DNA of 32,000 bases from Ruminococcus albus 7 = DSM 20455. Its GTDB lineage: Bacteria > Bacillota > Clostridia > Oscillospirales > Ruminococcaceae. The notes under the pieces are model-generated. The model had not been told where the DNA came from, made no database searches, and worked only from the letters and a program-made list of their open reading frames with translations. The stretch is taken from positions 240,001-272,000 of the forward strand of contig NC_014824.1 in the NCBI RefSeq assembly GCF_000179635.2, written 5' to 3'. Below are positions 1,282 through 30,584 of the stretch, piece after piece. How positions within the stretch are numbered: the first letter of the stretch is position 1; the number at the start of each line of letters is the position of its first letter. The position numbers were made by a program, and so were the translations under genes.

Positions 1282-1307
1282 AGAGTGTGACACGCGTGAC
1301 ACACTCT
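1282..1307. promoter_or_regulatory. Solitary variant of the double GTGWCAC site (AGAGTGTGACAC-GC-GTGACACACTCT)
   Basis: Same two 7-bp GTGWCAC palindromes 9 bp apart as in the 1941-7160 array, here with extended symmetric arms. Lies 33 nt after the DHH gene stop. Confidence 0.5.
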
Positions 1308-1466: not shown

Positions 1467-1901
1467 ATGGATAAAGTAACGAAGCAAAAAATAAAACACA
1501 CGCTGAGGAAAAACGGGCTAACTATTTTTTTAGGAATCTCTGTAATATTACTAATAATCATCGCGTTAATGAATGTCAGCGTAAAAAAAGAGAAGATCAA
1601 AAAAGAAAAAGTAGCAAGCAATATTTATTATGGCTGCATCAAGACAGAACATGAAGAAAAAGTTCTGGTGATCACCCAGGCGAATTATTTCATCGAAAAT
1701 GAATGCCTTGATGATGGCAGCGGAGAAAAATATAAAGAACTAAATACAATACTATACAAAAGCGGACTCAAACAATATTCAGAAGGGAAATACTCTTTAA
1801 CAGAAGAAATGAATGAGTCTGACTTAGTTCAGATATTAACTGAGAACAATATGGTTTTGGATTTCAAAAACAAGGAATATAATGATTTCTGCAACAGATA
1901 A
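1467..1901 (+). CDS. Small membrane-anchored hypothetical protein
   Basis: ORF 1410-1901. The ATG at 1467 (MDKVTKQK...) is preferred because GAGGTG lies 7 nt upstream. One N-terminal hydrophobic helix (GLTIFLGISVILLIIIALMNV). No recognisable family. Confidence 0.55.
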   Translation: MDKVTKQKIKHTLRKNGLTIFLGISVILLIIIALMNVSVKKEKIKKEKVASNIYYGCIKTEHEEKVLVITQANYFIENECLDDGSGEKYKELNTILYKSGLKQYSEGKYSLTEEMNESDLVQILTENNMVLDFKNKEYNDFCNR

Positions 1902-1910
1902 TTCAGAAGA

Positions 1911-1938
1911 AAAGCTCATCGATAGATGGGCTTTTTTT
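1911..1938 (+). terminator. Rho-independent terminator
   Basis: AAAGCTCATC / GATGGGCTTT stem with one mismatch, GATA loop and a T7 tract, directly after the stop at 1901. Confidence 0.7.
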
Positions 1939-1940
1939 AT

Positions 1941-4900
1941 TGTGTCACGCGTGACACACTTAGATCAGGTGGATTACGTCCGTTAATTAGAGTGGATTTT
2001 GTCCGTTAATTCAAAGCTAAACTGCTTGAAATTCTGCTTTTCGACTTAATCTGTGTCACGAGTGACACACTCAGATCAGTTGGATTTCATACGTTAGTTA
2101 AGATGGATTGTATCCGTTAATTCGGGCCTTGCTAATATTATGGAGAGTGGATTTTATCTGTTAAATCAAAACTGAAATGCCCGAAATACTGCTTTTCAAC
2201 TTAGTCTGTGTCACGAGTGACACACTCAGAGAGGGTGGATTTCATACGTTAATTCGAGTCTTGCTAGTATTATGGAGAGTGGATTTTGTCCGTTAATTCA
2301 AAGCTAAACTGCCTGAAATTCTGCTTTTCGACTTAATCTGTGTCACGAGTGACACACTCAGAGAGGGTGGATTTCATACGTTAATTCGAGTCTTGCTAGT
2401 ATTATGGAGAGTGGATTTTGTCCGTTAATTCAAAACTGAAATGCCCGAAATACTGCTTTTCAACTTAGTCTGTGTCACGAGTGACACACTCAGAGAGGGT
2501 GGATTTCATACGTTAATTCGAGTCTTGCTAGTATTATGGAGAGTGGATTTTGTCCGTTAATTCAAAACTGAAATGCCCGAAATACTGTTTTTCAACTTAG
2601 TCTGTGTCACGAGTGACACACTCAGAGAGAGTGGATTTCATACGTTAATTCGAGTCTTGCTAGTATTATGGAGAGTGGATTTTGTCCGTTAATTCAAAAC
2701 TGAAATGCCCGAAATACTGCTTTTCAACTTAGTCTGTGTCACGAGTGACACACTCAGAGAGAGTGATTTCATACGTTAATTCGAGTCTTGCTAGTATTAT
2801 GGAGAGTGGATTTTGTCCGTTAATTCAAAACTGAAATGCCCGAAATACTGCTTTTCAACTTAGTCTGTGTCACGAGTGACACACTCAGAGAGAGTGGATT
2901 TCATACGTTAATTCGAGTCTTGCTAGTATTATGGAGAGTGGATTTTGTCCGTTAATTCAAAACTGAAATGCCCGAAATACTGCTTTTCAACTTAGTCTGT
3001 GTCACGGGTGACACGCTCGAAACCAGGAAGTTAGATCATCGCATAGATGGATTGCGACCGTTAATTCAAAATTTAAACTCCCCAAATACTGCTTTTCAAA
3101 TCAGTTTGTATCACTGGTGACACGCTCGAATTCAATACATCTGATCATTGCATAGGTGGATTGCATCCGTTAATTCAAGAGTGAAATACACAGAAATACT
3201 GCTTTCAGCTTTGTTTGTGTCACACGTGACACAATTGAAGCAGAATAATGCTGCGGGTGGATTATATCCGTTAGTTGAGATGGATTCTATCCGTTAATTA
3301 GAGGCTTGCTTGTATTTTGAATGTGGATTGTATCCGTTAATTCAAAACAGAAACTCCCGAAACACTTCGTTTCAACTTAGTTTGTGTCACGCGTGTCACA
3401 CTTAGATCAGGTGGATTACGTCCGTTAATTAGAGTGGATTTCATACGTTAGTTAAGATGGATTGCATCCGTTAATTCGGGTCTTGCTAGTATTATGGAGA
3501 GTGGATTTTGTCCGTTAATTCAAAACAGAAACTCCCCCAAATACATCATTTCAGAATAATTTGTGTCACCCGTGACACAGTCAGATGAGGTGAATTGCGT
3601 CCGTTAATTCAAGAATGAAATACACAGAAATGTTGCTTTCAGCTTTGTTTGTGTCACGCGTGTCACAATCGAAACTATTGAATCAGAATAATGCTGCGGG
3701 TGGATTGTATCCGTTAATTCAAAACAGAAACGCATGAAAATACTACTTTTCAGATTAGTCTGTGTCACGGGTGACACGATCGAAACCAGGAAGTTAGATC
3801 GTCGCATAGATGGATTTCGCTCGTTAATTCAAAATTCAAACGCCCAAAAATACTGCTTTTCAAATCAGTTTGTATCACTGGTGACACGCTCGAATTCAAG
3901 ACATCTGATCATTGCATAGTGGATTGCATCCATTAATTGAAGTGAAATTTGTCCGTTAATTCTAGAGTGAAATACACAGAAATGCTGCTTTCAGCTTTGT
4001 TTGTGTCACGAGTGTCACACTCAGATCAGGTGGATTGTATCCGTTAATTAGAATTTTGAAGCTTGCCTATCATGGATTACGTCCGTTAATTCAAAGCTAA
4101 ACTGCCTGAAATTCTGCTTTTCAACTTAGTCTGTGTCACGAGTGTCACACTTATATCAGTTAGATTACTTCCGTTGATTAGAGTGGATTTCATACGTTAA
4201 TTGAGATGGATTCTATCCGTTAATTCGGGTCTTTCTAGTATTATGAAGAGTGGATTTTGTCCGTTAATTCAAAACTAAAACTCCCCCCAAATACATCATT
4301 TCAGAATAATTTGTGTCACGCGTGACACAATTAAAACAATTGAATCAGAATAATGCTGGTGGATTACATTCGTTAATTGAGATGAATTCTATCCGTTAAT
4401 TAGAGTCTTGCTAGTATTATGGAGAGTGGATTTTATCCGTTAATTCAAAACTATAACTCCCCAAATACTGCGTTTCAGCTTATTTTGTGTCACGCGTGTC
4501 ACACTCAGATCAGATGGGTTGTATCCGTTAATTAGAATTTTTAAGCTTGCCTATCATGGATTACGTCCGTTAATTCAAATTTAAAACTCCCCCAAAATAC
4601 ATCATTTCAGAATAATGCTGGTGGATTTCATACGTTAGTTAAGATGGATTGTATCCGTTAATTCGGGTCTTGCTAGTATTATGGAGAGTGGATTTTGTCC
4701 GTTAATTCAAAACTGAAACTCCCCCAAATACATCATTTCAGAATAATTTGTGTCACGCGTGACACAATTGAAACAATTGAATCAGAATAATGCTGCGGGT
4801 GGATTATATCCGTTAGTTGAGATGGATTCTATCCGTTAATTAGAGTTTTGATACCTTCCTGTCATGGATTTCGCCCGTTAATTCTAAATTAAAACTTCCC

Positions 4901-7160
4901 CAAATACTGCTTTTCAAATCAGTTTGTATCACTGGTGACACGCTCGAATTCAAGACATCTAATCATTGCATAGGTGGATTGTGTCCGTTAATCGAAGTGG
5001 AATTTATCCGTTAATTCAAGAGTGAAATACACAGAAATGCTGCTTTCAGCTTTGTTTGTGTCACGCGTGTCACACTTAGATCAGGTGGATTACGTCCGTT
5101 AATTAGAGTGGATTTCATACGTTAATTGAGATGGATTCTATCCGTTAATTAGAGTTTTGCTAGCATTATGGAGAGTGGTTTGGTCCGTTAATTCAAAACA
5201 GGAACTCCCCCCAAATACATCATTTCAGAATAATTTGTGTCACCCGTGACACAGTCAGATGAGGTGGATTGCGTCCGTTAATTGAAGTGGAATTTGTCCG
5301 TTAATTCAAGAATGAAATACACAGAAATGCTGCTTCAGCTTTGTTTGTGTCACGCGTGACACAATTGAAACAATTGAATCAGAATAATGCTGCGGGTGGA
5401 TTATATCCGTTAATTAGAGCTTTGCTTGTATTATAGAGAGTGGATTTTGTCCGTTAATTCAAATTTAAAACTCCCCCAAATACATCATTTTTTCAGAATA
5501 ATTCTGGTGGATTACATTCGTTAGTTAAGATGAATTCTATCCGTTAATTAGAGTCTTGCTAGTATTATGGAGAGTGGATTTTATCCGTTAATTCAAAACT
5601 ATAACTCCCCAAATACTGCGTTTCAGCTTATTTTGTGTCACGAGTGTCACACTCAGATCAGATGGGTTGTATCCGTTAATTAGAATTTTGAAGCTTGCCT
5701 ATCATGGATTACGTCCGTTAATTCAAATTTAAAACTCCCCCAAATACATCATTTCAGAATAATTTGTGTCACGCGTGACACAATTGAAACAATTGAATCA
5801 GAATAATGCTGCGGGTGGATTATATCCGTTAGTTGAGATGGATTCTATCCGTTAATTAGAGTTTTGATACCTTCCTGTCATGGATTTCGCCCGTTAATTC
5901 TAAATTAAAACTTCCCGAAATACTGCTTTTCAAATCAGTTTGTGTCACTGGTGACACGCTCCAACACAAGAAGTCAGATTATTGCATAGATGAATTTCAT
6001 CCGTTAGATGATGTGGATTCTATCCGTTAATTAAAGTTTTGCTTGTATTATAGAAGGTGGATTTTGTCCGTTAATTCAAAGCTAAACTGCCTGAAATTCT
6101 GTTTTTCAGCTTAGTTTGTGTCACGAGTGTCACACTCAGATCAGGTGGATTGTATCCGTTAAATAGAGTGGATTTCATACGTTAATTGAGATGGATTCTA
6201 TCCGTTAATTCGGGTCTTGCTAGTATTATGGAGAGTGGATTTTGTCCGTTAATTCAAAACTGAAAATCCCCCAAATACATTATTTCAGAATAATTTGTGT
6301 CACCCGTGACACAGTCAGATGAGGTGGATTGCGTCCGTTAATTGAAGTGGAATTTGTCCGTTAATTCAAGAATGAAATACACAGAAATGCTGCTTCAGCT
6401 TTGTTTGTGTCACGCGTGACACAATTGATACAATTGAATCGGAATAATGCTGCGGGTGGATTATATCCGTTAGTTGAGATGGATTCTATCCGTTAATTGG
6501 AGGCTTGCTATTATTTATAAGGTGGATTGTATCCGTTAATTCAAAACAGAAACGCATGAAAATACTGCTTTTCAGATTAGTCTGTGTCACGGGTGACACG
6601 CTCGAATTCAAGACATCTGATCATTGCATAGTGGATTGCATCCATTAATTGAAGTGAAATTTGTCCGTTAATTCTAGAGTGAAATACACAGAAATGCTGC
6701 TTTTCAACTTAGTCTGTGTCACGCGTGTCACACTTATATCAGTTAGATTACGTCCGTTAAATAGAGTGGATTTCATACGTTAATTGAGATGGATTCTATC
6801 CGTATATTAGAGTTTTGCTTGTATTATAGAAGGTGGATTTTGTCCGTTAATTCAATGCTAAACTGCCAGAAATTCTGCTTTTCAACTCAGTTTGTGTCAC
6901 GCGTGTCACACCCAGATCAGGTGGATTACATCCGTTAGTTGAGGTGGATTGTATCCGTTAATTAGAATTTTGGAGCTTTCCTATCATGGATTACGTCCGT
7001 TAATTCAAAACTGTAACGCCCAGAAATACCGCTTTTTAGATTGGCTTGTGTCACGAGTGACACACTTGAAATCTGGAATATTAGATTATTCTACTGGTGG
7101 ATTGCGTCCGTTAGTTGAACGGATTTTATTCGTAAAAGAGGTGGATTTCATCCGTTAGTT
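1941..7160. repeat. 5.2-kb non-coding mosaic array: 35 double palindromes plus about 90 co-oriented iteron-like 20-22-mers
   Basis: Hand-mapped palindrome starts: 1941, 2052, 2207, 2339, 2471, 2603, 2735, 2866, 2997, 3107, 3216, 3383, 3562, 3650, 3761, 3871, 4002, 4132, 4312, 4486, 4749, 4925, 5057, 5236, 5346, 5634, 5765, 5941, 6117, 6296, 6406, 6583, 6715, 6893, 7047. Each is followed by 1-5 copies of (G/A)TGGATTnnnnnCGTTAATT and a conserved tail ...AAATACTGCTTTTCAACTTAGTC. Only three 61-69-aa ORFs fall inside, all within repeats. Confidence 0.95.
2207..2996. repeat. Six near-identical 131-132-bp tandem units inside the array
   Basis: Palindromes at 2207, 2339, 2471, 2603, 2735 and 2866 (next at 2997). 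Each unit is TGTGTCACGAGTGACACA + GTGGATTTCATACGTTAATT + CGAGTCTTGCTAGTATTATGGAGA + GTGGATTTTGTCCGTTAATT + tail. Only a few substitutions or 1-nt indels between copies. Confidence 0.9.
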
Positions 7161-7199
7161 GAATATCGTAAACAGCGGAATTCCGGTCGTTTCAAAGCT

Positions 7200-7319
7200 C
7201 CGTAATCACAATATATATCACATCAACTATCACATATACTATAACTTTAATCACTCTATCTATCATAAACAAGTGAAAGATAGACTGATTTTCACGCAAT
7301 TACATCTGTAATTATTTCC
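7200..7319. repeat. Origin-flanking module, copy 1 (phased ATCACA x3 plus TCTATC/GATAGA inverted repeat)
   Basis: CCGTAATCACAAT...AATCACTCTATCTATCA...GAAAGATAGACTGATTTTCAC is repeated at 7918-8063. ATCACA occurs at 7205, 7217 and 7229 (12-bp phasing). Confidence 0.75.
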
Positions 7320-7476
7320 AGAAAGCTCAAACTTGAAGCCTAAGATTCATAGGAGAGATTTCATTATATTATCTATAGCTTCGGTATAGCTAAAGAAACG
7401 AGCTTGTGGACTGTTCCAATATCTTATCAATAGAATAAATTTTTTCTTGATTTTTCTGATAAATTCTGAACAATCA

Positions 7477-7505
7477 TTGCTATTTTCTCTTTTATATGGT
7501 ATAAT
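7477..7505 (+). promoter_or_regulatory. Candidate sigma-A promoter TTGCTA-17-TGgTATAAT
   Basis: -35 at 7477-7482, 17-nt spacer, extended -10 TGG-TATAAT at 7497-7505. No protein-coding ORF follows before the iteron cluster. Confidence 0.45.
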
Positions 7506-7680
7506 AAGGCTAGAAATCTATGATATACAAGATGAGCTTACAGTATTTGAAAAAATATTTCAAGCAAGTCTGTCTAAATTATAGACAGGTATCTCATTTA
7601 TTTGTATCTTTACGAAAAACTATGATATATGCTTTTCAATATATCAGATAGCTCAGGTATATTGATAGAGAAGCGTAACT

Positions 7681-7880
7681 GAGTGGATTTCATCCGTTAG
7701 TAGAGTGGTTTTCAACCGTTAATTGAGTGGATTCCATCCGTTAGTATGGTGGTTATCATCCGTTAATTGAGTGGATTTGGGACGTTAGTCGGGTGGTTTT
7801 CAACCGTTAATTGGATGGATTCTATCCGTTAGTAGAGTGGTTTTCAACCGTTAATTGAGTGGATTCGGAACGTTAGTTCA
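7681..7880 (+). repeat. oriV iteron cluster: 9 directly abutting 21-23-bp iterons
   Basis: Alternating GAGTGGATTnnnnCCGTTAGTA and GAGTGGTTTTCAACCGTTAATT types, about 22 bp apart and all in one orientation, 315 bp upstream of the Rep_3-like gene. Classic iteron-origin layout. Confidence 0.8.
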
Positions 7881-7917
7881 GCTTTTGAAACGGATTTATT
7901 TCGGTTGTTTTTAAAAG

Positions 7918-8063
7918 CCGTAATCACAATAACTATCACAAAATCTATCACATCAAATATCACATTAAAATCACAAGTATTATAACTGTATAATCACTCT
8001 ATCTATCACCCGATAGAAAGATAGACTGATTTTTCACACAAGAATCTACTTGTTATTATTGCC
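7918..8063. repeat. Origin-flanking module, copy 2 (phased ATCACA x5)
   Basis: ATCACA at 7923, 7935, 7947, 7959 and 7970 (12/12/12/11-bp spacing), then AATCACTCTATCTATCACCCGATAGAAAGATAGACTGATTTTTCAC, homologous to 7200-7319. Confidence 0.75.
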
Positions 8064-8085
8064 GAGATTCACACACTTAATACTC

Positions 8086-8140
8086 AAAAAAATTTTTTTA
8101 TAAAAAAAGATTACATTTGATTTTTTATTTTTTGAAGTTT
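8086..8140. other. AT-rich tract, candidate DNA-unwinding element
   Basis: Almost pure A/T run (AAAAAAATTTTTTTATAAAAAAAGATTACATTTGATTTTTTATTTTTTGAAG) between the iterons and the rep start. Confidence 0.35.
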
Positions 8141-8194
8141 TCTTCTATAATCAATATGTGACTCTAAGTTATGATTCCTTGAAAGGATGTTATT

Positions 8195-9349
8195 ATGTCA
8201 AAGAAAGACGAAAAAACTCAAATATTAGTTGGGTTAGGAGATCCCAAAAAACTGGTGATTCAAAAATCAAAACCATTACTGGATATAGTGAGAATAGGAC
8301 TTCCATTAGATGCGCTCAAGCTTCTCGATGCTTATCTAGCAAAAATTGATACTTATAAGCCAGATAACAAAACTGTCGTATTCGAGGTAAAAGAGTACGA
8401 AGAGATGCTGGGTATCCAGAGACTCCGAACAGAAGTCCTAGACGCTAATCTTGATAAATTGCTTAATCACGTGATTACGCTAAAAAACACTGCCAACGAC
8501 GAAGATGATGATGTAATAAAAATCAACTTGTTTCAAATGGCTAGAAGAAGAATCAACAAAGAAACCCGAATGGGTGAGATAGTGCTGGTTTGTAATGACG
8601 TGGCTAAAGATTTTATTTTCAAATTAGATGATATTAAATACATCAAATATAATCTTGAAGATATAATCAAATTAAATTCAAGATATAGTTACACGTTATT
8701 TTTATACTTAAAAGACAATTTGTATAAAAAAACATGGACTATTAGTTATCCTGAGTTGAAGGTCAGATTAGGATGCGAATCATCGAGATATTCTATGTTC
8801 AGTTATCTAAAAAATGATATCCTCAACCCCTGTAAGAAAGAAATAGAAAGCAAAACAGGTGTCCGCTTCACTTTCGAGCCTATAAGGAAAAACCGCTCTG
8901 TAATTGCTGTAACATTCACGGCTTCGGAAGTCAAAGGTCTTACTGACAAAAAGAAGACTGGTAAGATGGTAGATACTGATAAAATGGTAGATGTTGAATC
9001 AAGTAAATCTGCATCTACTGTACCGGTTGATAATAATGAGGAAAAAGACTGGAAAGCTTTCTATGGTTCATCTGTCCTTGCAGGACTGGCTGAGCAATGT
9101 GAATACACGTTTTCTAAGAAAGAAATGCAGCTTATCCATGCTCTCCTAAAAAAGATAAATATATCGCCGGCTGAAGGAGACAGAACGGGTACATGTAGAT
9201 TCGGAAGGGAAGCGTATTTACAGGAAAAGTATCTGCGTCTGTGTCAGGAAGAAGAAAATAAAGCGAAAAACGGTGAATCTATCACTAACCGTTTTGCGTA
9301 TTTAAGAAAAATGCTTGAAAATGAAGCAGAAGAAGATTCAGATGAATAA
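8195..9349 (+). CDS. Plasmid replication initiator, Rep_3/RepB-like (iteron-binding)
   Basis: 384-aa ORF with AAAGGA SD. The N-terminal pattern (...VIQKSKPLLDIVRIGLPLDALKLLDAYLAKIDTYKP...VFEVKEYEEMLGI) resembles winged-helix Rep_3 initiators. It sits directly downstream of the tandem iterons and the AT-rich tract. Confidence 0.7.
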   Translation: MSKKDEKTQILVGLGDPKKLVIQKSKPLLDIVRIGLPLDALKLLDAYLAKIDTYKPDNKTVVFEVKEYEEMLGIQRLRTEVLDANLDKLLNHVITLKNTANDEDDDVIKINLFQMARRRINKETRMGEIVLVCNDVAKDFIFKLDDIKYIKYNLEDIIKLNSRYSYTLFLYLKDNLYKKTWTISYPELKVRLGCESSRYSMFSYLKNDILNPCKKEIESKTGVRFTFEPIRKNRSVIAVTFTASEVKGLTDKKKTGKMVDTDKMVDVESSKSASTVPVDNNEEKDWKAFYGSSVLAGLAEQCEYTFSKKEMQLIHALLKKINISPAEGDRTGTCRFGREAYLQEKYLRLCQEEENKAKNGESITNRFAYLRKMLENEAEEDSDE

Positions 9350-9421
9350 TTACAACACTTCAACAGAAAGTCTACGGCTTTAACCGTGGGAGGATGTCAG
9401 AGAATGAAAGGAGATATGTAA

Positions 9422-11404
9422 TTGGCAGCATCATACGACAATAACAGTATAAGTTCTCTTAAAGGAGCTGACAGAGTAAGAAAAAGACCCGGTGTTATTT
9501 TTGGCTCTAACGGTCTTGAAGGAGCTCAGCATGCTTATTTTGAGATACTGTCCAATTCCATTGATGAAGCCAAAGATGGGTACGGCAGCAAGATCACAAC
9601 TATTCTGTATGAAGATGGTTCTATAAGCGTCCAGGATCACGGTCGAGGCATTCCACTTGAATTCAATAAAACCGAAAATCGCTATAACTGGGAGCTCGTT
9701 TACTGCGAACTTTACGCAGGAGGAAAATACGATGTTGACGGAGCTAATTATGAGTACAGTCTGGGGCTTAACGGTCTTGGAGCTTGTGCAACTCAGTATG
9801 CAAGCGAGTATTTCGATGTGGAAGTTGTCCGGGATGGCTATAAATATAACCTTCACTTTGAAAAAGGTGAGAATATAGGTGGACTTGTAAAAAAGAAATT
9901 GAAATCAAAATCAGAAACCGGTACATTCCAGAAATGGAAGCCTGATCTTGAGGTATTTACGGATACAAATATCACTTATGAATATTTGCTTGATGTAAAC
10001 AAAAAACAGGCTATGGTCAATAAGGGCATAACCTTCTGCATCATGGACCAGTCTTCTGATACAAACACTGAGTATTACTATGAAAACGGAATAATTGACT
10101 ATATAGAAGAAATTTCCGACGGTAAAAATATTTCTTCTCCGTATTATATCGAGGGCTCCGGAACAGGAAGGGATAGGGAAGACCTTAAAGAGTACAAGGT
10201 CAAAGCCGAGATCGCTTTTGCTTTCAATAACGATGTACCTACCCTTCAGTATTACCACAATTCAAGCTTTCTTGAACACGGCGGAGCTCCAGATAAAGCG
10301 GTAAAGTCAGCTTTTGTAGCTGTTTTTGATAAGATTCTCAAGCAAAGAGGAAAGTATAATAAAGGCGAGACTAAAATTAGCTTTGCTGATATAGAAGACA
10401 GTCTTATAGTCATCGTAAACAGTCTTTCGACAATGACAAGCTACGAGAATCAGACCAAAAAGGCTATAAACAATAAATTTATCCAGGATTTTCTCACCGA
10501 ACTGATCAAAGAAAGACTGGAAATATGGTTTATTGAAAATGCCGGCGATTCCAACAGGGTGATCGACCAGATACTTGCAAATAAAAGAAGCAGGGAAGCC
10601 TCCGAAAAGCAAAGAATCGCACTGAAAAGAAAACTTGTAGGCAAGAGTGATTCTTGGGACAGAGTAAAGAAATTTGTAGACTGCAAGTCTAAAGATACTT
10701 CCATAAGAGAATTATTTATTGTTGAAGGTGATTCAGCTCTCGGTTCGGTAAAGATGGGCAGAGATTCAGAATTTCAAGCAGTAATGCCTGTAAGAGGAAA
10801 GATACTTAACTGCCTGAAATCGGATATTTCAAAAATTGTCAGCAGCGATATAATAATGGATCTGATAAAAGTGCTTGGCTGCGGTATAGAAATACCGATA
10901 AAAACACCCAAGAGGGGAGTCCTCTCTTTCGATATAAACAACCTGAAATGGAATAAGATAATAATCTGTACAGATGCCGATGTTGATGGATTTCAGATAA
11001 GAACTCTGATACTGACTATGATCTACAGATTATGTCCGACTCTTATAGAAGAAGGATACGTTTATATCGCTGAAACTCCACTGTACGAAATGAGATATAA
11101 AACGAGAGCTAATGAGGAAACGTTCTTCGCTTTCGATGAAAAAGAAAAAAACAAGATAATGAAAGGAAAAGATCCTTCAAGATTCTTTATTCAGCGTTCA
11201 AAAGGACTTGGCGAAAATACTGCGGAATTTATGTGGCTCACTACGATGGATCCTAAAACAAGACGTCTTATAAGGGTTACATCTGAGGATGCAAAAAAAA
11301 TGCTTGAGTACTTTGAATTATACCTTGGAAATAATGTAGCTGCAAGAAAAAGCTACATAGAAGAAAACGGACATCTATACACTGATGATCTTGATCTCGA
11401 TTAA
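9422..11404 (+). CDS. Type IIA DNA topoisomerase, subunit B (GyrB/ParE-like)
   Basis: TTG start 8 nt after AGGAGA. Motifs: VRKRPGVIFGS, EILSNSIDEA (ATPase N-box), DHGRGIP, GLNGLGA, Toprim EGDSALGS, PVRGKILN, IICTDADVDGFQIRTLILT. Confidence 0.9.
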   Translation: MAASYDNNSISSLKGADRVRKRPGVIFGSNGLEGAQHAYFEILSNSIDEAKDGYGSKITTILYEDGSISVQDHGRGIPLEFNKTENRYNWELVYCELYAGGKYDVDGANYEYSLGLNGLGACATQYASEYFDVEVVRDGYKYNLHFEKGENIGGLVKKKLKSKSETGTFQKWKPDLEVFTDTNITYEYLLDVNKKQAMVNKGITFCIMDQSSDTNTEYYYENGIIDYIEEISDGKNISSPYYIEGSGTGRDREDLKEYKVKAEIAFAFNNDVPTLQYYHNSSFLEHGGAPDKAVKSAFVAVFDKILKQRGKYNKGETKISFADIEDSLIVIVNSLSTMTSYENQTKKAINNKFIQDFLTELIKERLEIWFIENAGDSNRVIDQILANKRSREASEKQRIALKRKLVGKSDSWDRVKKFVDCKSKDTSIRELFIVEGDSALGSVKMGRDSEFQAVMPVRGKILNCLKSDISKIVSSDIIMDLIKVLGCGIEIPIKTPKRGVLSFDINNLKWNKIIICTDADVDGFQIRTLILTMIYRLCPTLIEEGYVYIAETPLYEMRYKTRANEETFFAFDEKEKNKIMKGKDPSRFFIQRSKGLGENTAEFMWLTTMDPKTRRLIRVTSEDAKKMLEYFELYLGNNVAARKSYIEENGHLYTDDLDLD

Positions 11405-14785: not shown

Positions 14786-16285
14786 TTTCTTCCCTCCATG
14801 GTAATAATATCGTTCCCGCAGGCTGTGAAAACAGCTCGGTCAGGTATTTCTCAGCATCAACACCGTTCGCCTGTGCAGTTGAAATGATCGAATACAGCGT
14901 TGCACTTGATCTGGCTCCGTTTGCTGTATTTGAAAACAGCCAATTTTTTCGGCCTAACGCAAACGGTCTTATTGCGTTTTCGGCTCTGTTGTTGTCGATA
15001 GGCACGTCTCCGTTTTCAAGAAACGTGTAAAGATATTTCCGTTCATTCAACGCATATCTTACTGCATCTGTCAGCTTGCCCTTACCACTGACCTGAACAT
15101 TTTCAAGCCACGCAAAAACTCGTCAAGCAAAGGCTTTACCTTCACAAGGCGCTGTTTATATCTGTATTCTGTGGAGCTGTCGGCAAGCAGATTTTCTTCG
15201 TGATATATCTTGTTGAAATATTCTACTGCCTTTGCCGCAACAGAAGTGCTGTGCAGCTTTTGGTCGTTCGGAAGAGCCTGAATAAAACCACGCCTTGCAT
15301 GAGTCATACAGCCGCATCGCTTAGCACCCTCGACTGCATTGTAGGCATCGTATCCGTCACAGATAAGATAGCCGATAAATCCTTTCAGGAAATTCGAGGC
15401 GTGCTCACCCTTTCGTGTCGGCTGATAATCGAAAATGATGATGCTCCTGTCATTCATTTTGCCGTTGCAGTAGACCCACATTCTTGATGTCGTGGTAGGC
15501 TTTCGGCCTTCCTCGTGAAGCACCTGAACGGTCGTTTCATCGGCATGGATCATCTGCCCTGCGATAAGCGTCTCATGCATTTTCTCCACAATCGGCAAAC
15601 ACCATTTTTCGGCAGCAGTGCCTACCCAATTAGACATAGTCGCTTTGAGCAGAGGTATGTTTTTGGAATTAAAGTCCTTTTCCTGACGGTGCAGAGGTAC
15701 TGACTTTGCATATTTTTCGTAGATGATATGAGCCAGAAGTTCGGGAGAGCAATAGCTTCCCGGGATCATAGCGTGAGGATATGGCGCACGGATGATATGA
15801 CAAGGTTCGTCCCTTTCTTCGGGCTTTTCTCCGCACTCGGGACACTTGTACTTATGTACTATATGCCTGCGGATATGATATTTTGGCGGCGTAAATATAA
15901 GTTCATCGTAAGCCTTTTCGGGAGTCAGTTCTTCCATTTCGGCGCCGCATATTTCGCATACCGGGTTGTCAATTTTGTGATGTTCTTCTTTTACAGGCAG
16001 ATTGTTCATCCATTCATCGTGAGTGCGTTTTTTCTTGCGCTTGTGTTCGGGAACAGTAATTGTTTCGGCAGATTTAGCTGCGGATTTTTCTTCATTGTTT
16101 CCGAACATGGAAAGCTGAACACCGAACTCCTTTTCCATAACAACAGATGTCTGCTCTGTTTTTCTTCCGAATATCTGCTTTCTGAACCACGCTAACTGCT
16201 GATTGGCAAGTGCTAGTTCTTCCTTGAGAACAGCGTTTTCATTACGGAGCGATACAATTTCCGATGTCATATTTGGTTCGGACAT
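14775..16285 (-). pseudogene. tnpC: IS66-family transposase (tnpC), disrupted by a 1-nt frameshift
   Basis: N-terminal leucine-zipper region (LRNENAVLKEELALANQQLAWFRKQIFG), CPECGEK zinc finger, DETTVQVL, ICDGYDAYN. The C-terminal block NNRAENAIRPFALGRKNWLF is in another frame (ORF 14775-15050). The shift restores ...LLDEFLAWLENVQVSGKGKLTDAVRYALNERKY at the A5/T5 run 15115-15119. Start taken at 16285 (GGAGGGG SD). Confidence 0.85.
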
Positions 16286-16377
16286 AAAGCACCCCTCCGT
16301 TCGTGATGATACTTTAATGATACCACGAAAAGAGGGGCTTTTCAAGCACATATTCTGAATATTCGGTAAGTATTGCC

Positions 16378-16734
16378 TTAATACAGCGCCCCCGGCTTTC
16401 CCTCACGGATAGCCTTCGGCTGCTCTATTTTCAAGCCTTCCAGAAGCCAGCGAATTTGCTGAGATGTGAGCATTACTGCTTCGGTCTCACTGCGCGGCCA
16501 CTGGAATCTTCCGTTGTCAAGGCGCTTGTACAACAGCAGAAAACCATCGCCCTCCCACAGCAGACCTTTGATGCGGTCACAACGTCTGCCGCAGAACAAA
16601 AACAATGCTTTCGAGAACGGGTCAAGTCGAAGCTGAGCCTGAACGATAGTCGCAAGTCCGTCTATCCCGCGTCGAAGGTCGGTGTATCCCGTAACAAGAT
16701 AGACCTGTGCGTCCGCTGCCAGATCATTCAGCAT
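16378..16734 (-). CDS. tnpB: IS66 Orf2-like accessory protein (TnpB of IS66; unrelated to IS605 TnpB)
   Basis: 118 aa. ...VYLVTGYTDLRRGIDGLATIVQ...LFLFCGRRCDRIKGLLWEGDGFLLLYKRLDNGRFQWP... is the characteristic IS66 Orf2 sequence. Confidence 0.9.
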   Translation of the reverse strand: MLNDLAADAQVYLVTGYTDLRRGIDGLATIVQAQLRLDPFSKALFLFCGRRCDRIKGLLWEGDGFLLLYKRLDNGRFQWPRSETEAVMLTSQQIRWLLEGLKIEQPKAIREGKPGALY

Positions 16735-17045
16735 AGCTCATGCACCAAAGCGGTCAGAGTGTCCGCAGATATATCTGCCGGAAGAGATATTTGAAGTCCG
16801 TTTTTCTCAATGCGGATATTTTCGTTTGAGCAAGGAACTGATACAGGAACGATGGTCGGAGAATTTTCGATATACTTTTCACGAACTTTTCTTAGGCGGT
16901 TGTAATACGTGTTTGGCTTGATCCCTTTTTCTTTGCACCATTCCCGGATCGTCAGACCGCTTGCCTGCTGTGCTTTGATCTGCGCAGACCATTCCTGAAG
17001 CTGCATTTCTTTTTTGATTGTTGTGATGGATGTTGTTTTGTCCAT
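16728..17045 (-). CDS. tnpA: IS66 Orf1 (helix-turn-helix accessory protein TnpA)
   Basis: Start chosen at 17045 (MDKTTSITT...) with AAGGAGG 7 nt upstream. HTH-like SGLTIREWCKEKGIKPNTYYNRLRK. Its stop overlaps the tnpB start. Confidence 0.8.
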   Translation of the reverse strand: MDKTTSITTIKKEMQLQEWSAQIKAQQASGLTIREWCKEKGIKPNTYYNRLRKVREKYIENSPTIVPVSVPCSNENIRIEKNGLQISLPADISADTLTALVHELC

Positions 17046-17191
17046 ACCTGTTACCTCCTTGTCTAATCGTCTCCAATGAACTCCATGGATCAATTTGGAT
17101 TATTCAATTTACTTCATGGTGTTCCTTGGAGTTTATTATACTTTATTAGACTTCGGTGGGGTAGGTGCTGGGGGTTATACGCTTACGATGT

Positions 17192-21693: not shown

Positions 21694-21900
21694 GTGACAT
21701 CCTCCCCCGCCTAAAGAGGCGGGGGGCGTCCCCTAACCTCAGCGAGTTCGGTTCTCGTTCGATAGTACTAATGCACTAAGCATAAGCGAGCTAACCCCGT
21801 GTGTCCCACGGTTTTTATGATTTAAGGCTACGCTAATGCTATTCGCATGCCTTCGTTTCTTATATTTATTGCAGCATTTACATCTCTGTCATGGTGAGTT
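21694..21900 (-). ncRNA. Predicted TnpB omega (right-end) RNA scaffold
   Basis: By analogy with characterised TnpB systems, the RNA spans the tnpB 3' end and the RE. The region is GC-rich and structured (GGGGACGCCCCCCGCCTCTTTAGGCGGGGGAGGATGTCAC). The 5' boundary is not determinable by eye. Confidence 0.4.
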
Positions 21901-22955
21901 CCGCATTCGGGACAGTCCCATGCTCTTATAGCAAGGTTCTTTGTTTCCTTATTGATGTAACCACAGCACGAACAAGTCTGACTGCTCGCAAAGAATTTAT
22001 CTATCTTTACAAGTCTTTTGCCTTGTTCTTCCAGTTTGTACTTCAGGAATGTTACAAACATTCCCCAGCCGTTATCAGAAACCGACTTGCCGAATTTAAG
22101 TGCCTGAGACATTGCTTGCATGTTAAGATCTTCTATACATACACAATCATAGGCATTGGCTATCTGTCTTGACTGTTTATGTAGAAAGTCCTTTCGTTGA
22201 TTTGCTACTTTCTCATGCATTTTAGCAACCTTGATACGTTGTTTATCACGGTTTTTAGAGCCTTTCTGCATAAGAGAAAGTTTTCTTTGTTCTCTTTTTA
22301 GCTTTTTTTCGGCTCGTCTATAGTATCTGGGGTAGGCAGGTTCATTGCCGTTGCTGTCTTTGTACAGCTCATGCATCGAAAAGTCAAGCCCTAAGAAGTC
22401 ATGCAGTTCCTGTTCCTGTACTTGGTTTTCGTACTCATACAGAATACTTGCATAGTATTTTCCGCTTGGAGTCTGACTTACTGTCACAGACTTGAGAACA
22501 TATTCATCAGGAATGTTCCTGTGCTGTTTTACTTTGACTTGTCCAACTTTAGGTAATTTCAAGTATCCATTGGATATGGCTATGTTACCATTGATACAAA
22601 CGGTAGAATAGCTGTTCTTTTTACATTTTTTTGATTTAAACCTGGGAAATCCTGTTTTAGGCTGTTTGAAAAAGTTCTGAAACGCTGTATCCAGGTGTCG
22701 AAGCGACTGCTGCAATGATACGCTGTCCACTTCCCGTAAGAATGAGTATTTCTCCATTTTCTTAAGTTCAGCCATTTCTTTAGCAGAGGCATTGTAACTT
22801 AAAGTTGTCTCATATTCTTTATACTGCTTGATTCTTTTGTATAACCAATAGTTATATACCAATCTCACACAGCCGAAGGTTTTGGCAAACAAAATCTTTT
22901 GCTCGTTATTTGGGTGTATTCTGAATTTAAATGCTTTGTTTGCCATAGTGTTCAC
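21828..22955 (-). CDS. tnpB: TnpB RNA-guided nuclease (OrfB_IS605 + Zn ribbon)
   Basis: 375 aa. N-terminal FKFRIHPNNEQKILFAKTFGCVRLVYNYWL. RuvC motifs LGLDFS, CIEDLN, HDRDVNAAINI. Zinc ribbon CSCCGY...CPECG. Confidence 0.9.
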   Translation of the reverse strand: MNTMANKAFKFRIHPNNEQKILFAKTFGCVRLVYNYWLYKRIKQYKEYETTLSYNASAKEMAELKKMEKYSFLREVDSVSLQQSLRHLDTAFQNFFKQPKTGFPRFKSKKCKKNSYSTVCINGNIAISNGYLKLPKVGQVKVKQHRNIPDEYVLKSVTVSQTPSGKYYASILYEYENQVQEQELHDFLGLDFSMHELYKDSNGNEPAYPRYYRRAEKKLKREQRKLSLMQKGSKNRDKQRIKVAKMHEKVANQRKDFLHKQSRQIANAYDCVCIEDLNMQAMSQALKFGKSVSDNGWGMFVTFLKYKLEEQGKRLVKIDKFFASSQTCSCCGYINKETKNLAIRAWDCPECGTHHDRDVNAAINIRNEGMRIALA

Positions 22956-23322: not shown

Positions 23323-23340
23323 TGTGTCACGCGTGACACA
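23323..23340. promoter_or_regulatory. Solitary perfect palindrome TGTGTCACGCGTGACACA (operator or parS-like site)
   Basis: Identical to array units. Centred about 30 nt downstream of the -10 box, in a roadblock or operator position. Confidence 0.6.
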
Positions 23341-23397: not shown

Positions 23398-23429
23398 ACT
23401 ATATATAATTTTTTTTCTATGATAAAATC

Positions 23430-23438
23430 TGCTATAAT
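23430..23438 (+). promoter_or_regulatory. Second, extended -10 promoter (TGcTATAAT) proximal to the subunit A gene
   Basis: TGCTATAAT at 23430-23438 with an A/T-rich upstream region and no clear -35. Confidence 0.4.
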
Positions 23439-23490
23439 ACTATACAGAAACAATATTTTCTATACATAAATATTTTTAAGGAGAATAAAA

Positions 23491-26059: not shown

Positions 26060-26077
26060 TGTGTCACGCGTGACACA
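26060..26077. promoter_or_regulatory. Solitary perfect palindrome TGTGTCACGCGTGACACA
   Basis: Lies between a terminator-like hairpin (26026-26056) and the promoter of the 26229 operon. Confidence 0.6.
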
Positions 26078-29535: not shown

Positions 29536-29571
29536 GTGGGGGAGGGGAGTTGTTTGAAATTTGTGTCACGC

Positions 29572-29589
29572 GTGACACAAAATCACTTA
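29572..29589. promoter_or_regulatory. Solitary perfect palindrome TGTGTCACGCGTGACACA
   Basis: Lies 37 nt after the operon terminator, flanked by TTT/AAA like the copy at 26060. Confidence 0.6.
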
Positions 29590-29723: not shown

Positions 29724-29769
29724 TATAATAAGGCTAGTTATAATAATTCAGTATTACAATTAGCTGAAA

Positions 29770-29863
29770 ATATAAAAGCAAAATTGCTGAAAAGCAGTGA
29801 CGCAAAGCCAAGGGTCTAAACCGTATGGTATGACAGCCGGTTGCTATAGATAGGTAGGTTATA
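29770..29863 (+). promoter_or_regulatory. c-di-GMP-I (GEMM-I) riboswitch aptamer
   Basis: AAAGCAAAAUUGCUGAAAAGCAGUGACGCAAAGCCAAGGGUCUAAACCGUAUGGUAUGACAGCCGGUUGC...AUAGGUAGGUUAUAGG. Contains the GCAAA element, a GAAA-tetraloop hairpin, GACGCAAAGCC, CUAAACC, and GACAGCCGG(U)UGC / GGUAGGUAG elements. These are shared with the Vc2 and clostridial GEMM-I sequences as I recall them. Confidence 0.75.
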
Positions 29864-29892
29864 GGCAATGCGTTTTGGCGCATTGTCTTTTT
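29864..29892 (+). terminator. Riboswitch expression-platform terminator
   Basis: CAATGCG-TTTTGG-CGCATTG stem followed by TCTTTTT, ending 30 nt before the ATG at 29922. Confidence 0.7.
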
Positions 29893-29921
29893 GTTTTAAC
29901 AGATTGAGAAAGGATGATTTT

Positions 29922-30584
29922 ATGAAAAAGAAAGTATTAGCCTTATCAGCTGCTATAACTATGATTTTGGGTACTGGAGGAGTATTTCCAAAGGCTAAAT
30001 TGGATTTTAGTTCATTGATTTCAGTATACAGTTGGGAAACTAATGAGGGTTATGAATATGAAGTGATTAATCGCGATACGATTTGTATCACAGGATATAG
30101 TGGTTATGATGCAGAAATAATAATACCTGATAAAATAGATGGTAAAAAAGTTACTAGCTTAGGGGAAAATTCTTTTAGGTATACCGGAATTAAAAGCATA
30201 ACGATACCCGATGGCGTAAAGAGTATAGGGGAAAATGCTTTTGATAATTGCGAATACCTGACAAGCATAACTATTCCAGAAAGTGTAGAGAAAATAGAAG
30301 GCTATACTTTTTGGGGTTGTGATAATCTGGAGAGCATAACGTTACCCAATAGCATAACTAGCATAGGGCAATGTGCTTTTGGCGGCTGCAAAAGCCTGAC
30401 AAGTATTACTATACCATATAGCGTTACAAATATTGGAGATTATGCTTTAGGATATAAAATGTTATTAAGGTTTGATGAATATGAGAAACTCCCCAATTTC
30501 AAAATTTATTGCTACAAAGACGCCCAACACATCACCTTATCAACACTAAAAAATACCGAAATTCAGCATTTTTTCAAATGCTGA
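29922..30584 (+). CDS. Secreted BspA-type leucine-rich-repeat (LRR_5) surface protein, probably 3'-truncated or fused
   Basis: The ATG at 29922 (GAAAGGA SD) is preferred over the track start 29868, which lies in the terminator. Signal peptide MKKKVLALSAAITMILG. Repeats ITIPDGVKSIGENAF / ITIPESVEKIEGYTF / ITLPNSITSIGQCAF / ITIPYSVTNIGDYAL. The last about 20 aa look unrelated (junction with the integrated element). Confidence 0.8.
   Translation: MKKKVLALSAAITMILGTGGVFPKAKLDFSSLISVYSWETNEGYEYEVINRDTICITGYSGYDAEIIIPDKIDGKKVTSLGENSFRYTGIKSITIPDGVKSIGENAFDNCEYLTSITIPESVEKIEGYTFWGCDNLESITLPNSITSIGQCAFGGCKSLTSITIPYSVTNIGDYALGYKMLLRFDEYEKLPNFKIYCYKDAQHITLSTLKNTEIQHFFKC

What the first reader, a model, noticed from the sequence alone, without database searches (positions are those of the whole stretch)
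1941..7160. 5.2-kb coding-free array interdigitating 35 parS-like double palindromes with about 90 Rep-type iterons
About one sixth of the window is a single non-coding locus with a regular grammar. Each unit has one 18-bp site TGTGWCAC-NN-GTGWCACA (two 7-bp GTGWCAC palindromes 9 bp apart). It then has 1-5 co-oriented 20-22-bp sites (G/A)TGGATTnnnnnCGTTAATT and a conserved tail of about 40 bp. The 20-mers belong to the same family as the nine abutting iterons at 7681-7880, next to the Rep_3-like gene. The array therefore carries roughly ten times more putative initiator sites than the origin itself. The palindrome half-site TGTGTCAC differs by one base from the Spo0J/ParB parS half-site TGTTNCAC (parS = TGTTNCACGTGNAACA), with a 2-bp central insertion. 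I do not know a described replicon in which centromere-like and iteron sites alternate over kilobases. Possible roles are a giant centromere, a copy-number handcuffing or titration sink, or a condensate-nucleating maintenance locus. No strong promoter is visible within the units, so a binding-site array is more likely than an RNA array.
Basis: partly seen in the sequence, partly recalled or inferred. Interest (0 to 1): 0.9.

Follow-up and report, generated by a model that had tools for sequence, protein, structure and literature searches.

The report
Giant interleaved parS–iteron array on megaplasmid
A 5.2-kb gene-free stretch beside the replication origin of a 420-kb Ruminococcus albus plasmid holds 35 partition-protein (ParB) sites interleaved with about 90 replication-initiator (Rep) sites on a 22-bp grid, an unusually large locus that appears to combine plasmid segregation with copy-number control.

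Summary
Window 1941-7160 holds 35 GTGWCAC-NN-GTGWCAC palindromes (0.01 expected by chance) and 89-90 co-oriented TGGATT-N5-CGTTAATT sites. These sites belong to the same family as the 9 abutting 22-bp iterons before the Rep_3 gene. No ORF in the array exceeds 69 aa.

New findings:
- All sites sit on one 22.1-bp lattice, and unit lengths are multiples of 22.
- The window is R. albus 7 plasmid pRUMAL01 (420,706 bp).
- A second R. albus strain has the same locus without gaps (37 palindromes, 93 iterons, 5.2 kb).
- In a relative whose Rep is 56% identical, the palindrome is unchanged, but array and origin iterons have both switched to GGTACCTAT.
- The exact palindrome lies within 2-40 bp of five parA-parB operons whose ParBs are only 30-43% identical. 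One of these ParBs is encoded on the same replicon.
- Between strains, motif arms change 2-3 times less often than spacers.

Best reading: a multi-parS centromere interleaved with an initiator titration and handcuffing array. Binding and function are inferred, not shown. I found no description of it in the literature. It is a new variant of known kinds. Interest 0.65.

The parts
1941..7160 (+). Composite array. It has 35 units of 88-288 bp (all about n x 22 bp). Each unit has one 16-18-bp palindrome followed by 1-5 co-oriented iteron-like sites.
   Evidence: No ORF over 69 aa. No Rfam match.
1942..7063 (.). 35 palindromes (T)GTGWCAC-NN-GTGWCAC(A), the putative parS sites. Starts: 1942, 2053, 2208, 2340, 2472, 2604, 2736, 2867, 2999, 3108, 3217, 3384, 3563, 3651, 3762, 3872, 4003, 4133, 4313, 4487, 4750, 4926, 5058, 5237, 5347, 5635, 5766, 5942, 6118, 6297, 6407, 6584, 6716, 6894, 7048.
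   Evidence: 0.01 expected by chance. The same 18-mer lies next to parAB operons.
1970..7160 (+). About 90 iteron-like sites, consensus ggTGGATTntaTCCGTTAATTca. All are on the + strand and phased on a 22.1-bp lattice.
2104..3018 (+). Sub-array of about 7 near-identical 132-bp units (96% matches). This is the part whose copy number is least certain.
7098..7160 (+). Three abutting iterons (22-bp spacing) that close the array.
7198..7305 (+). Duplicate of the origin's post-iteron module: CCGTAATCAC, then WATCACW repeats every 12 bp, then CTATCTATCA...AGATAGACTGATTTT. Together with 7098-7160 it forms a second, origin-like module.
   Evidence: Alignment.
7477..7590 (+). Strong promoter-like site (TTGCTA-17-TG-TATAAT, 7477-7505) followed by a terminator-like hairpin (7568-7590), between the array and the origin. 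Possibly a small transcript reading toward the origin.
7681..7880 (+). Origin iterons: 9 abutting 22-bp repeats with a 44-bp super-period.
7915..8040 (+). A+T-rich post-iteron module of the origin, conserved in the L011 lineage. No DnaA box is present.
8195..9349 (+). rep gene: a Rep_3-family initiator (WH1 + WH2 domains) with a C-terminal extension of about 140 aa. It equals ADU23941.1 of R. albus 7.
1287..1302 (.). Dispersed variant palindrome GTGACACGCGTGACAC, between the DHH gene and ORF 1410.
23324..23339 (.). Dispersed perfect palindrome (TTTGTGTCACGCGTGACACAAA), 167 bp upstream of the GyrA/ParC-like gene.
26061..26076 (.). Dispersed perfect palindrome. It is the breakpoint of a 3.25-kb MerR/sigma cassette that is present in other strains.
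29563..29578 (.). Dispersed perfect palindrome upstream of the riboswitch and LRR gene.

Best explanation
The array is a cis-acting maintenance locus of the R. albus megaplasmid pRUMAL01, made of two interleaved sets of protein-binding sites.

1. The 35 palindromes are parS sites for the plasmid's own HTH-type ParB. That ParB is encoded with a Soj-like ParA about 40-50 kb away on the same replicon. Together the sites form a very large multi-site centromere. Further single copies are scattered across the plasmid and flank the parA promoter, much like KorB/OB sites.

2. The roughly 90 co-oriented iterons bind the Rep_3 initiator encoded 1 kb downstream. They carry ten times more sites than the origin. 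They most likely hold copy number low by titrating Rep and by handcuffing the origin, as the incA and ori2-inc loci do.

Both site types sit on one 22.1-bp (two helical turns) lattice, so bound proteins would line up on one face of the DNA.

Shown here: site identity, regular grammar, conservation, co-variation with Rep, adjacency of the palindrome to parAB, and a ParB gene on the same replicon.

Inferred: actual binding, centromere activity, copy-number control, and any coupling between ParB and Rep on the array.
For: 1. Counts far above chance and a strict grammar.

2. Global 22.10-bp phase across 5.2 kb: R = 0.73 for iterons and 0.62 for palindromes, against a maximum of 0.35 for random positions. 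The second strain gives 22.07 bp.

3. Co-variation. The window has TGGATT-N5-CGTTAATT in both array (n=90) and origin. Lineage L011/L091/L106 (Rep 56% identical, GyrB-like 92%) has TGGATTT-N4-GGTACCTAT in both array (n=10 and n=20) and origin. There are no cross-type sites, and the palindrome TGTGTCACGCGTGACACA is unchanged. A third Rep lineage has a third 3' arm.

4. ParB link. The exact 18-mer lies 2-10 bp after the parB stop in L095, L111 and L151-155, with no T-run and the next gene's ribosome-binding site following. It occurs twice around the parA promoter in L085, L134, L135 and L156-159. These proteins match ParB_N + HTH_ParB and ParA (AAA_31/CbiA). Their closest solved relatives are Spo0J, Noc and ParB.

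5. Same replicon. ParB ADU23900.1 and Rep ADU23941.1 are both on the 420,706-bp record. In JAGS01000005.1, parB lies at about 161 kb and the array at about 107.5-112.7 kb.

6. Purifying selection between strains, as mismatch rates: palindrome arms 3.1%, iteron arms 5.5%, spacers 10.7%, iteron variable core 15%, palindrome centre 23%. Fisher p is about 1e-7 to 1e-8.

7. The array is conserved in size (35 versus 37 units) although the units are rearranged. It is present in more than 10 rumen metagenome assemblies.

8. Precedents for each half, and for ParB-initiator crosstalk: PMC3688505, PMC6090056, PMC7671480.
Against: - No binding or genetic data exist.
- parAB is 40-55 kb from the array, whereas classic plasmid centromeres abut their par genes.
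- Only 6 of 35 array palindromes are perfect, so many may be weak sites.
- The ParB has GHHR where CTP-dependent ParBs have GERR, so clamp-type loading and spreading is uncertain.
- The palindrome also marks indel breakpoints. It flanks small repeated cassettes beside a resolvase-like gene in L116. It may therefore have another role, or an additional one.
- The between-strain comparison mixes orthologous and paralogous units.
- Weak minus-strand promoter-like sites recur in units, so transcription is not excluded.
Confidence: 0.7

Rival explanations
1. Regulatory decoy rather than centromere. The palindrome is chiefly an operator for a global repressor, either ParB acting like KorB or another HTH protein such as the XRE-S24 repressor encoded next to parAB. 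On this view the array buffers the free concentration of that regulator and of Rep, while segregation uses only the sites at parAB.
For: Dispersed palindromes lie 85-170 bp upstream of several operons: the Phd/PIN toxin-antitoxin pair, the XRE-S24 repressor gene, parA and the gyrA-like gene. Two copies bracket the parA promoter. parAB is 40-55 kb from the array.
Against: XRE-S24 is absent from the L095, L111 and L151 contexts, which still carry the palindrome at parB. Several dispersed copies sit between a terminator and the next promoter rather than in an operator position. A 35-copy cluster beside the origin is where centromeres of chromosomes and chromids usually lie. This reading overlaps with the best explanation rather than excluding it.
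Confidence: 0.12
2. Neutral satellite. The array is a selfishly expanding or decaying tandem duplication of origin iterons plus one palindrome. It persists through unequal crossing-over and has no function of its own.
For: The 22-bp lattice and the origin-like module at the array end (7098-7305) suggest descent from duplicated origin iterons. Higher-order repeats of about 1.0-1.7 kb and near-identical 132-bp units show ongoing duplication.
Against: Motif arms are 2-3 times more conserved than spacers, and the iteron core is variable. All array iterons changed in step with Rep and the origin iterons in another lineage. Array size is retained in two strains despite rearrangement.
Confidence: 0.06
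3. Recombination sites. The 10-2-10 palindrome is a crossover site for a serine recombinase (hix/gix-like) or another recombination hotspot. The array would then be a by-product of, or a substrate for, cassette shuffling or multimer resolution.
For: The breakpoints of the MerR/sigma cassette indel fall exactly at palindromes. In L116, palindromes flank repeated small cassettes 100 bp from a resolvase-like gene. The central dinucleotide varies among array units.
Against: No recombinase gene accompanies the palindrome in the L095, L111 or L085 contexts, and L151 has a tyrosine integrase instead. Thirty-five crossover sites in tandem would be unstable, yet array size is conserved. The association with parAB is much tighter (five operons).
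Confidence: 0.05
4. RNA array. The units are transcribed, for example from the weak minus-strand TTAACG-16-CATAAT sites, into repeated hairpin-containing RNAs.
For: About 17 repeated promoter-like matches occur on the minus strand: 50 found in the scanned region against 26.7 expected. The palindromes can fold into 7-8-bp hairpins.
Against: There is no Rfam match. The promoter matches are weak (9-10 of 12) and arise from the iteron sequence itself. The L011 lineage units lack them, yet keep the palindrome and matching iterons. Conservation follows a DNA-site pattern: arms conserved, while the hairpin-loop and centre positions are free.
Confidence: 0.03

Closest known systems
F plasmid sopC (12 tandem 43-bp repeats, each with a 16-bp SopB-binding inverted repeat); from my own knowledge
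   Same: A tandem array in which every unit carries one palindromic binding site for an HTH ParB.
   Different: sopC is 0.5 kb against 5.2 kb here, with 12 sites against 35. It abuts sopAB and carries no initiator sites between the palindromes. Here parAB is 40-55 kb away.
P1 incA, F incC and V. cholerae ori2-inc iterons: extra-origin iterons that lower copy number by initiator titration and handcuffing (PMC6090056)
   Same: Initiator-binding repeats of the origin's own family lie just outside the minimal origin, upstream of or around rep.
   Different: Those loci have 5-9 sites, against about 90 here. They are not interleaved with centromere sites and show no long-range 22-bp lattice.
V. cholerae chromosome II parS2-B / 39-mer crosstalk (PMC3688505)
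   Same: A ParB loaded next to inhibitory initiator sites can compete with the initiator, linking segregation to replication control. This is the best precedent for a functional reason to interleave the two site types.
   Different: It involves one parS and a few 39-mers with a different initiator (RctB). The coupling there is shown experimentally, whereas here it is only inferred.
RK2 KorB / OB operators: palindromic ParB sites dispersed over a plasmid, many at promoters; from my own knowledge
   Same: Single perfect palindromes are scattered in intergenic regions across the replicon, including around the par promoter.
   Different: RK2 has 12 single sites and no array. The ParB and site sequences are unrelated.
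Chromosomal Spo0J/ParB with parS TGTTNCACGTGNAACA
   Same: The closest solved relatives of this ParB are Spo0J, Noc and ParB. The ParA is small and Soj-like. The half-site TGTGTCAC differs from TGTTNCAC at one position.
   Different: The site is 18 bp with 2 extra central bases. Canonical parS is absent from the window. The GERR CTP-binding box reads GHHR.
Deinococcus radiodurans cisII / cisMP (PMC7671480)
   Same: A repeat array on a secondary replicon is reported to combine origin and parS-like functions.
   Different: Those arrays are under 0.5 kb with 8-11 direct repeats, and a single repeat type is proposed to serve both proteins. They lie upstream of parAB.

Membership tests
Rep_3 iteron-type theta replicon | Initiator with WH1 + WH2 domains (Pfam Rep3_N, Rep3_C) | tested here: met
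   68.4 and 49.5 bits, against cut-offs of 22.4 and 21.1.
Rep_3 iteron-type theta replicon | Tandem iterons of about 22 bp next to rep, plus an A+T-rich region | tested here: met
   Nine abutting 22-bp repeats at 7684-7878. A+T is 68-81% over 7851-8200.
Rep_3 iteron-type theta replicon | Rep binds the iterons and the region replicates autonomously | not testable with these tools
   Needs EMSA or ChIP and a mini-replicon assay.
Extra-origin copy-control iteron locus (incA-like) | Sites of the same sequence family as the origin iterons, located outside the minimal origin | tested here: met
   Consensus sequences; positions.
Extra-origin copy-control iteron locus (incA-like) | Sites track the specificity of the cognate initiator across lineages | tested here: met
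   Window versus L011/L091: array and origin iterons switch together, with no cross-type sites.
Extra-origin copy-control iteron locus (incA-like) | The locus lowers copy number or exerts incompatibility | not testable with these tools
   Needs genetics.
ParABS partition system (HTH ParB, Soj-like ParA) | ParB with ParB_N + HTH domains and a Walker-type ParA encoded on the same replicon | tested here: met
   Pfam matches. ADU23900.1 is on the same 420,706-bp record as Rep. Same contig in JAGS01000005.1.
ParABS partition system (HTH ParB, Soj-like ParA) | A palindromic site of 14-18 bp associated with the par operon | tested here: met
   Five diverged operons carry the identical 18-mer within 2-40 bp. 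It is absent from ParB_N-only paralogues in conjugative leading regions.
ParABS partition system (HTH ParB, Soj-like ParA) | CTP-binding GERRxRA box in ParB_N | tested here: not met
   The alignment to T. thermophilus Spo0J shows GHHRLEAA in place of GERRYRAA. Some plasmid ParBs also deviate, so this weakens the 'CTP clamp' reading, not ParB membership as such.
ParABS partition system (HTH ParB, Soj-like ParA) | ParB binds the site and the site confers ParAB-dependent stability | not testable with these tools
   Needs ChIP or EMSA and stability assays.
sopC-type tandem centromere | Tandem units, each with one ParB palindrome, lying immediately next to parAB | tested here: not met
   The tandem palindromes are present, but parAB is about 48 kb from the array in JAGS01000005.1 and outside the 32-kb window.
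Canonical chromosomal parS | TGTTNCACGTGNAACA | tested here: not met
   One match at 2 mismatches; 0.11 expected, and 10 of 100 shuffles do as well.
Serine-recombinase crossover site (hix/gix/res site I) | A cognate recombinase gene consistently linked to the site | tested here: not met
   A recombinase gene lies near the site only in L116. None is present in the L085, L095 or L111 contexts.
Known structured RNA or CRISPR-like array | Rfam family match, or unique spacers between repeats | tested here: not met
   The only Rfam hit in the window is a c-di-GMP-I riboswitch at 29767-29848. The inter-palindrome segments are themselves repeats.

The most novel reading that the evidence does not exclude
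The interleaving is itself the mechanism. Rep bound at phased iterons and ParB loaded at the intervening parS sites would form one joint nucleoprotein filament that physically couples segregation to replication licensing. For example, ParB occupancy could evict or mask Rep and release handcuffing only when plasmids are partitioned, or Rep roadblocks could confine ParB into a dense super-centromere. The 90 co-oriented Rep-iteron complexes might also act as a polar fork barrier, which would make replication of the 420-kb plasmid unidirectional and end it at the array. Genes on both sides of the origin point the same way and GC skew does not flip.
Probability: 0.2. Interest if true: 0.85.

Novelty: new variant of a known kind. 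Interest (0 to 1): 0.65.

Why it matters
Each ingredient is textbook: parS centromeres, and extra-origin iterons for copy control. I know of no described replicon that interleaves dozens of each on a common helical lattice over 5 kb, and four full-text literature searches aimed at such an architecture found none.

If the inferred functions hold, this is a natural system in which partition-complex assembly and initiator titration or handcuffing share the same DNA. Crosstalk between segregation and replication control has so far been documented mainly for V. cholerae chromosome II. Here it could be tested directly by site-by-site editing.

The work also defines a new ParB/parS specificity (TGTGTCACGCGTGACACA), shared by megaplasmids and integrative elements of rumen Ruminococcus. 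It defines three matched Rep/iteron specificities as well. These are useful parts for building vectors and orthogonal ParB/parS tags in a genetically intractable, agriculturally important group of bacteria.

Finally, it explains why short-read assemblies of these plasmids break at this locus.

Tried and rejected
- PLSDB blastn of 7161-9400 found no match.
- Phage tblastn with Rep gave only distant hits at 33% identity or less.
- An IMG/VR scan for the palindrome found nothing.
- A genome-contig scan with a Rep profile returned 62 loci with Rep at 39% identity or less. None has the palindrome or a comparable array, and only ordinary 7-14-copy 22-23-bp iterons appear. Most of these are short-read MAG contigs that would break at such arrays.
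- ParB homologues of the P0046 type (about 52% identical, ParB_N only) turned out to be leading-region proteins of conjugative elements with no palindrome. They served as a negative control.
- I considered the XRE-S24 repressor as the palindrome binder. It is absent from three of the par contexts.
- I considered the palindrome as an intrinsic terminator of parAB. There is no T-run, the next gene's ribosome-binding site follows directly, and the sequence is identical across operons that are only about 30% identical.
- GC skew and gene orientation, tried as a test for uni- versus bidirectional replication, were inconclusive because skew follows coding strand.
- No DnaA box at 1 mismatch or less occurs in 1500-8300.
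- Canonical parS is absent.
- Rfam gave nothing in the array.
- I did not run structure prediction or fold search, because they would not bear on DNA-site specificity.

Full report
**1. What is in the sequence**

Window 1941-7160 is a repeat array (Tandem Repeats Finder periods of 109, 132 and 176 bp).
- It contains 35 copies of GT[GA]TCAC-NN-GTG[AT]CAC. A looser scan finds 39 in the whole window against 0.01 expected.
- It contains 89 copies of TGGATT-N5-CGTTAATT at up to 3 mismatches, 57 of them perfect, all on the + strand. At up to 4 mismatches there are 90.
- Nine abutting 22-bp members of the same family lie at 7684-7878. They precede the gene at 8195-9349, which matches Pfam Rep3_N and Rep3_C well above threshold.
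- The longest ORF inside the array is 69 aa, and Rfam finds nothing there.

**2. Grammar and lattice**

Each unit is one palindrome followed by 1-5 iterons (14 units with 2, 9 with 3, 5 with 1, 5 with 4, 2 with 5).
- The first iteron starts 28 or about 49 bp after the palindrome.
- Iterons follow one another at 23, 42-44 or 65-67 bp.
- The next palindrome starts 41 +/- 1 bp after the last iteron.
- Unit lengths are 88, 110, 132, 154, 176-180, 263 and 288 bp, all close to multiples of 22.

A periodogram of site positions peaks sharply at 22.10 bp. R is 0.73 for iterons and 0.62 for palindromes, against a maximum of 0.35 for random positions. Phase is therefore kept over about 236 periods.

This may reflect descent from 22-bp origin iterons. 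It also means that all sites face the same side of the helix.

**3. Where the window comes from**

The DHH protein, Rep and GyrA-like protein are identical to ADU23938.1, ADU23941.1 and ADU23953.1 of Ruminococcus albus 7. Each is recorded on a 420,706-bp record. From my own knowledge this is plasmid pRUMAL01.

Neither of the two held papers that mention pRUMAL01 is about its replication or this locus. No held paper combines Ruminococcus, plasmid and iterons.

**4. Is the array real?**

- An older draft with the same Rep (L140, GCA_000621285.1) has a 1195-N gap and a collapsed segment in the array. Short reads therefore cannot resolve it.
- A second R. albus strain (GCA_000526775.1, contig JAGS01000005.1, 387,527 bp) has the same locus between the same flanking genes with no Ns. 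It carries 37 palindromes over 5.2 kb, 93 iterons and a lattice of 22.07 bp, with a partly different unit order.
- Ten rumen metagenome contigs with a 99%-identical Rep run into array fragments at their ends.

The array is not an assembly artefact. Only the copy number of the near-identical 132-bp units at 2104-3018 remains unverified.

**5. The iterons belong to Rep**

A related plasmid lineage (L011, L106, L091) has a GyrB-like protein 92% identical and a SUKH-domain (SMI1/KNR4-family) protein 97% identical, but a Rep only 56% identical.
- Its origin iterons read TGGATTT-N4-GGTACCTAT.
- Its arrays (153-bp units, one palindrome plus two iterons) carry that same variant.
- Neither lineage contains a single site of the other's type at up to 2 mismatches.
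- A third Rep lineage (54% identical) has a third 3' arm, GTCACRTA.

Dozens of array sites have thus changed in concert with the initiator and its origin sites. That is hard to explain unless Rep reads them.

**6. The palindrome belongs to a ParB**

An exact-match scan of metagenomes for TGTGTCACGCGTGACACA returned 51 loci. About a dozen of them carry several copies.

Three of these loci (L085, L095, L111) encode a ParA (AAA_31/CbiA) and a ParB (ParB_N + HTH_ParB). The ParBs are only 30-43% identical to one another, and each operon has the palindrome directly beside it.

A ParB profile search then found more cases:
- The R. albus ParB cluster (P0009 and P0145 = ADU23900.1).
- A clade from integrative elements (P0007).

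The palindrome's position follows two patterns:
- It lies 2-10 bp after the parB stop and just before the next gene's ribosome-binding site, with no T-run (L095, L111, L151-155).
- It occurs twice around the parA promoter (L085, L134, L135, L156-159).

ParB_N-only homologues in conjugative leading regions have no palindrome.

The closest solved structures are Spo0J, Noc and ParB.

ParB ADU23900.1 is on the same 420,706-bp record as Rep. In JAGS01000005.1, parB (about 160.8-161.7 kb) and the array (about 107.5-112.7 kb) share one contig.

**7. Selection**

I took the best-matching array segments of the two R. albus strains and counted mismatch rates by site class:

| Site class | Mismatch rate |
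|---|---|
| Palindrome arms | 3.1% |
| Iteron arms | 5.5% |
| Spacers | 10.7% |
| Iteron 5-nt core | 15% |
| Palindrome central dinucleotide | 23% |

The differences are significant, with Fisher p about 1e-7 to 1e-8.

Within the window, the iteron arms are nearly invariant (83-90 of 90), while the core varies. One caveat applies: some aligned units are paralogues.

**8. Interpretation**

The best-supported reading is a composite maintenance locus with two parts:
- A multi-parS centromere for the plasmid's ParB.
- A large initiator sink and handcuffing array, with ten times the origin's sites, interleaved with the parS sites and placed 0.5 kb from the origin.

Each half has precedents:
- F sopC and P1 incA (from my own knowledge).
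- Iteron titration and handcuffing in V. cholerae ori2-inc (PMC6090056).
- ParB2 competing with the initiator at inhibitory sites (PMC3688505).
- Small dual origin/parS repeat arrays in Deinococcus (PMC7671480).

What is unusual is the scale, the strict alternation, the common lattice, and the distance from parAB.

Binding, centromere activity and copy control are inferred. Why the two site types are interleaved is unknown. ParB-Rep competition, or confinement of ParB by Rep roadblocks, is plausible but speculative.

**9. Points against, and open questions**

- The ParB has GHHR where CTP-dependent ParBs have GERR.
- Only 6 of 35 array palindromes are perfect.
- Palindromes also mark a 3.25-kb cassette indel and flank small repeated cassettes next to a resolvase-like gene in L116. 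A recombination role cannot be excluded.
- Weak minus-strand promoter-like matches recur in units.
- Genes on both sides of the origin are co-oriented and GC skew does not flip. This is compatible with unidirectional replication, but it is confounded by coding-strand bias.

**10. Verdict**

The locus is a new variant of known kinds and is undescribed in the searched literature. Interest is 0.65.

Noticed in passing
window 7098-7305 versus 7858-8040: The array ends in a second origin-like module. It has three abutting iterons followed by a near-copy of the origin's post-iteron element (CCGTAATCAC, 12-bp WATCACW repeats, CTATCTATCA...AGATAGACTGATTTT). That element is also conserved at the L011 origin. 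The other R. albus strain has six abutting iterons at this position.
   Followed up: partly
window 7477-7590: This is the best promoter match of the scanned region (TTGCTA-17, extended -10 TG-TATAAT). A terminator-like hairpin follows about 60 nt downstream, between the array and the origin. It may be a small RNA or a transcript that activates the origin. L011 has a promoter-like site at the analogous place.
   Followed up: no
window 26061; L160 16495 and 19750: A 3.25-kb cassette (MerR-family gene plus a 518-aa sigma-70-like gene) is present in JAGS01000005.1 and in metagenome relatives. It is flanked by two palindromes. It is absent from the window, where one palindrome remains with the left flank of one copy and the right flank of the other. 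Palindromes therefore act as indel breakpoints.
   Followed up: partly
window 9422-11404 and 23491-25680: The plasmid encodes its own type IIA topoisomerase subunits (GyrB-like and GyrA/ParC-like). In relatives they lie about 1.4 kb apart. In the window they are separated by 12 kb that includes an IS66-family element (15071-17093, minus strand), an IS200/605 TnpB (21828-22955), a SUKH protein and a dockerin-bearing protein.
   Followed up: partly
window 29767-29848: A c-di-GMP-I riboswitch (71.9 bits, E = 1.9e-12) lies directly upstream of a BspA-type leucine-rich-repeat protein gene (29868-30584).
   Followed up: no
window about 23420-23450; L157 about 9100-9130; L011 about 1520-1545; L164 about 270-290 and 355-370: A shared promoter-like motif (A)AATCTGCTATAAT, or TTTCTGCTATAAT, precedes parA, the gyrA-like gene and rep in several lineages. 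It may reflect a common regulator or the plasmid-borne sigma factor seen in relatives.
   Followed up: no
L091 2-629 and 5458-6400 (contig OCTW010998183.1): The related lineage has two arrays in the same orientation. About 4.8 kb separates them, carrying the DHH and ORF1410 homologues and an IS605 TnpB. L160 likewise has two palindromes and one iteron upstream of DHH. The DHH module therefore seems to sit inside a larger array region.
   Followed up: partly
L116 1038-2692 (ERZ780218 NODE-378): Here the same palindrome, and a variant TCTGTCACGCGTGACAGA, flank three repeats of a cassette. Each cassette encodes a small hydrophobic peptide of about 25-30 aa, resembling a type I toxin. A tRNA gene and a resolvase-like gene lie alongside. 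This context differs from the plasmid array.
   Followed up: no
L151-L155 (P0007 loci): ParAB operons carrying the same parS-like palindrome occur in elements with a tyrosine integrase and a T4SS coupling protein, so they look like integrative conjugative elements. This suggests possible partition or regulatory crosstalk between integrative elements and the megaplasmid.
   Followed up: no
P0145 residues about 100-108 (ParB of pRUMAL01; not in the window): The conserved ParB CTP-binding box GERRxRAA reads GHHRLEAA. Box I QPR reads QPF, and box III ENLQRE reads ESNIQRD. Whether this ParB is a CTP-dependent clamp is an open question.
   Followed up: partly
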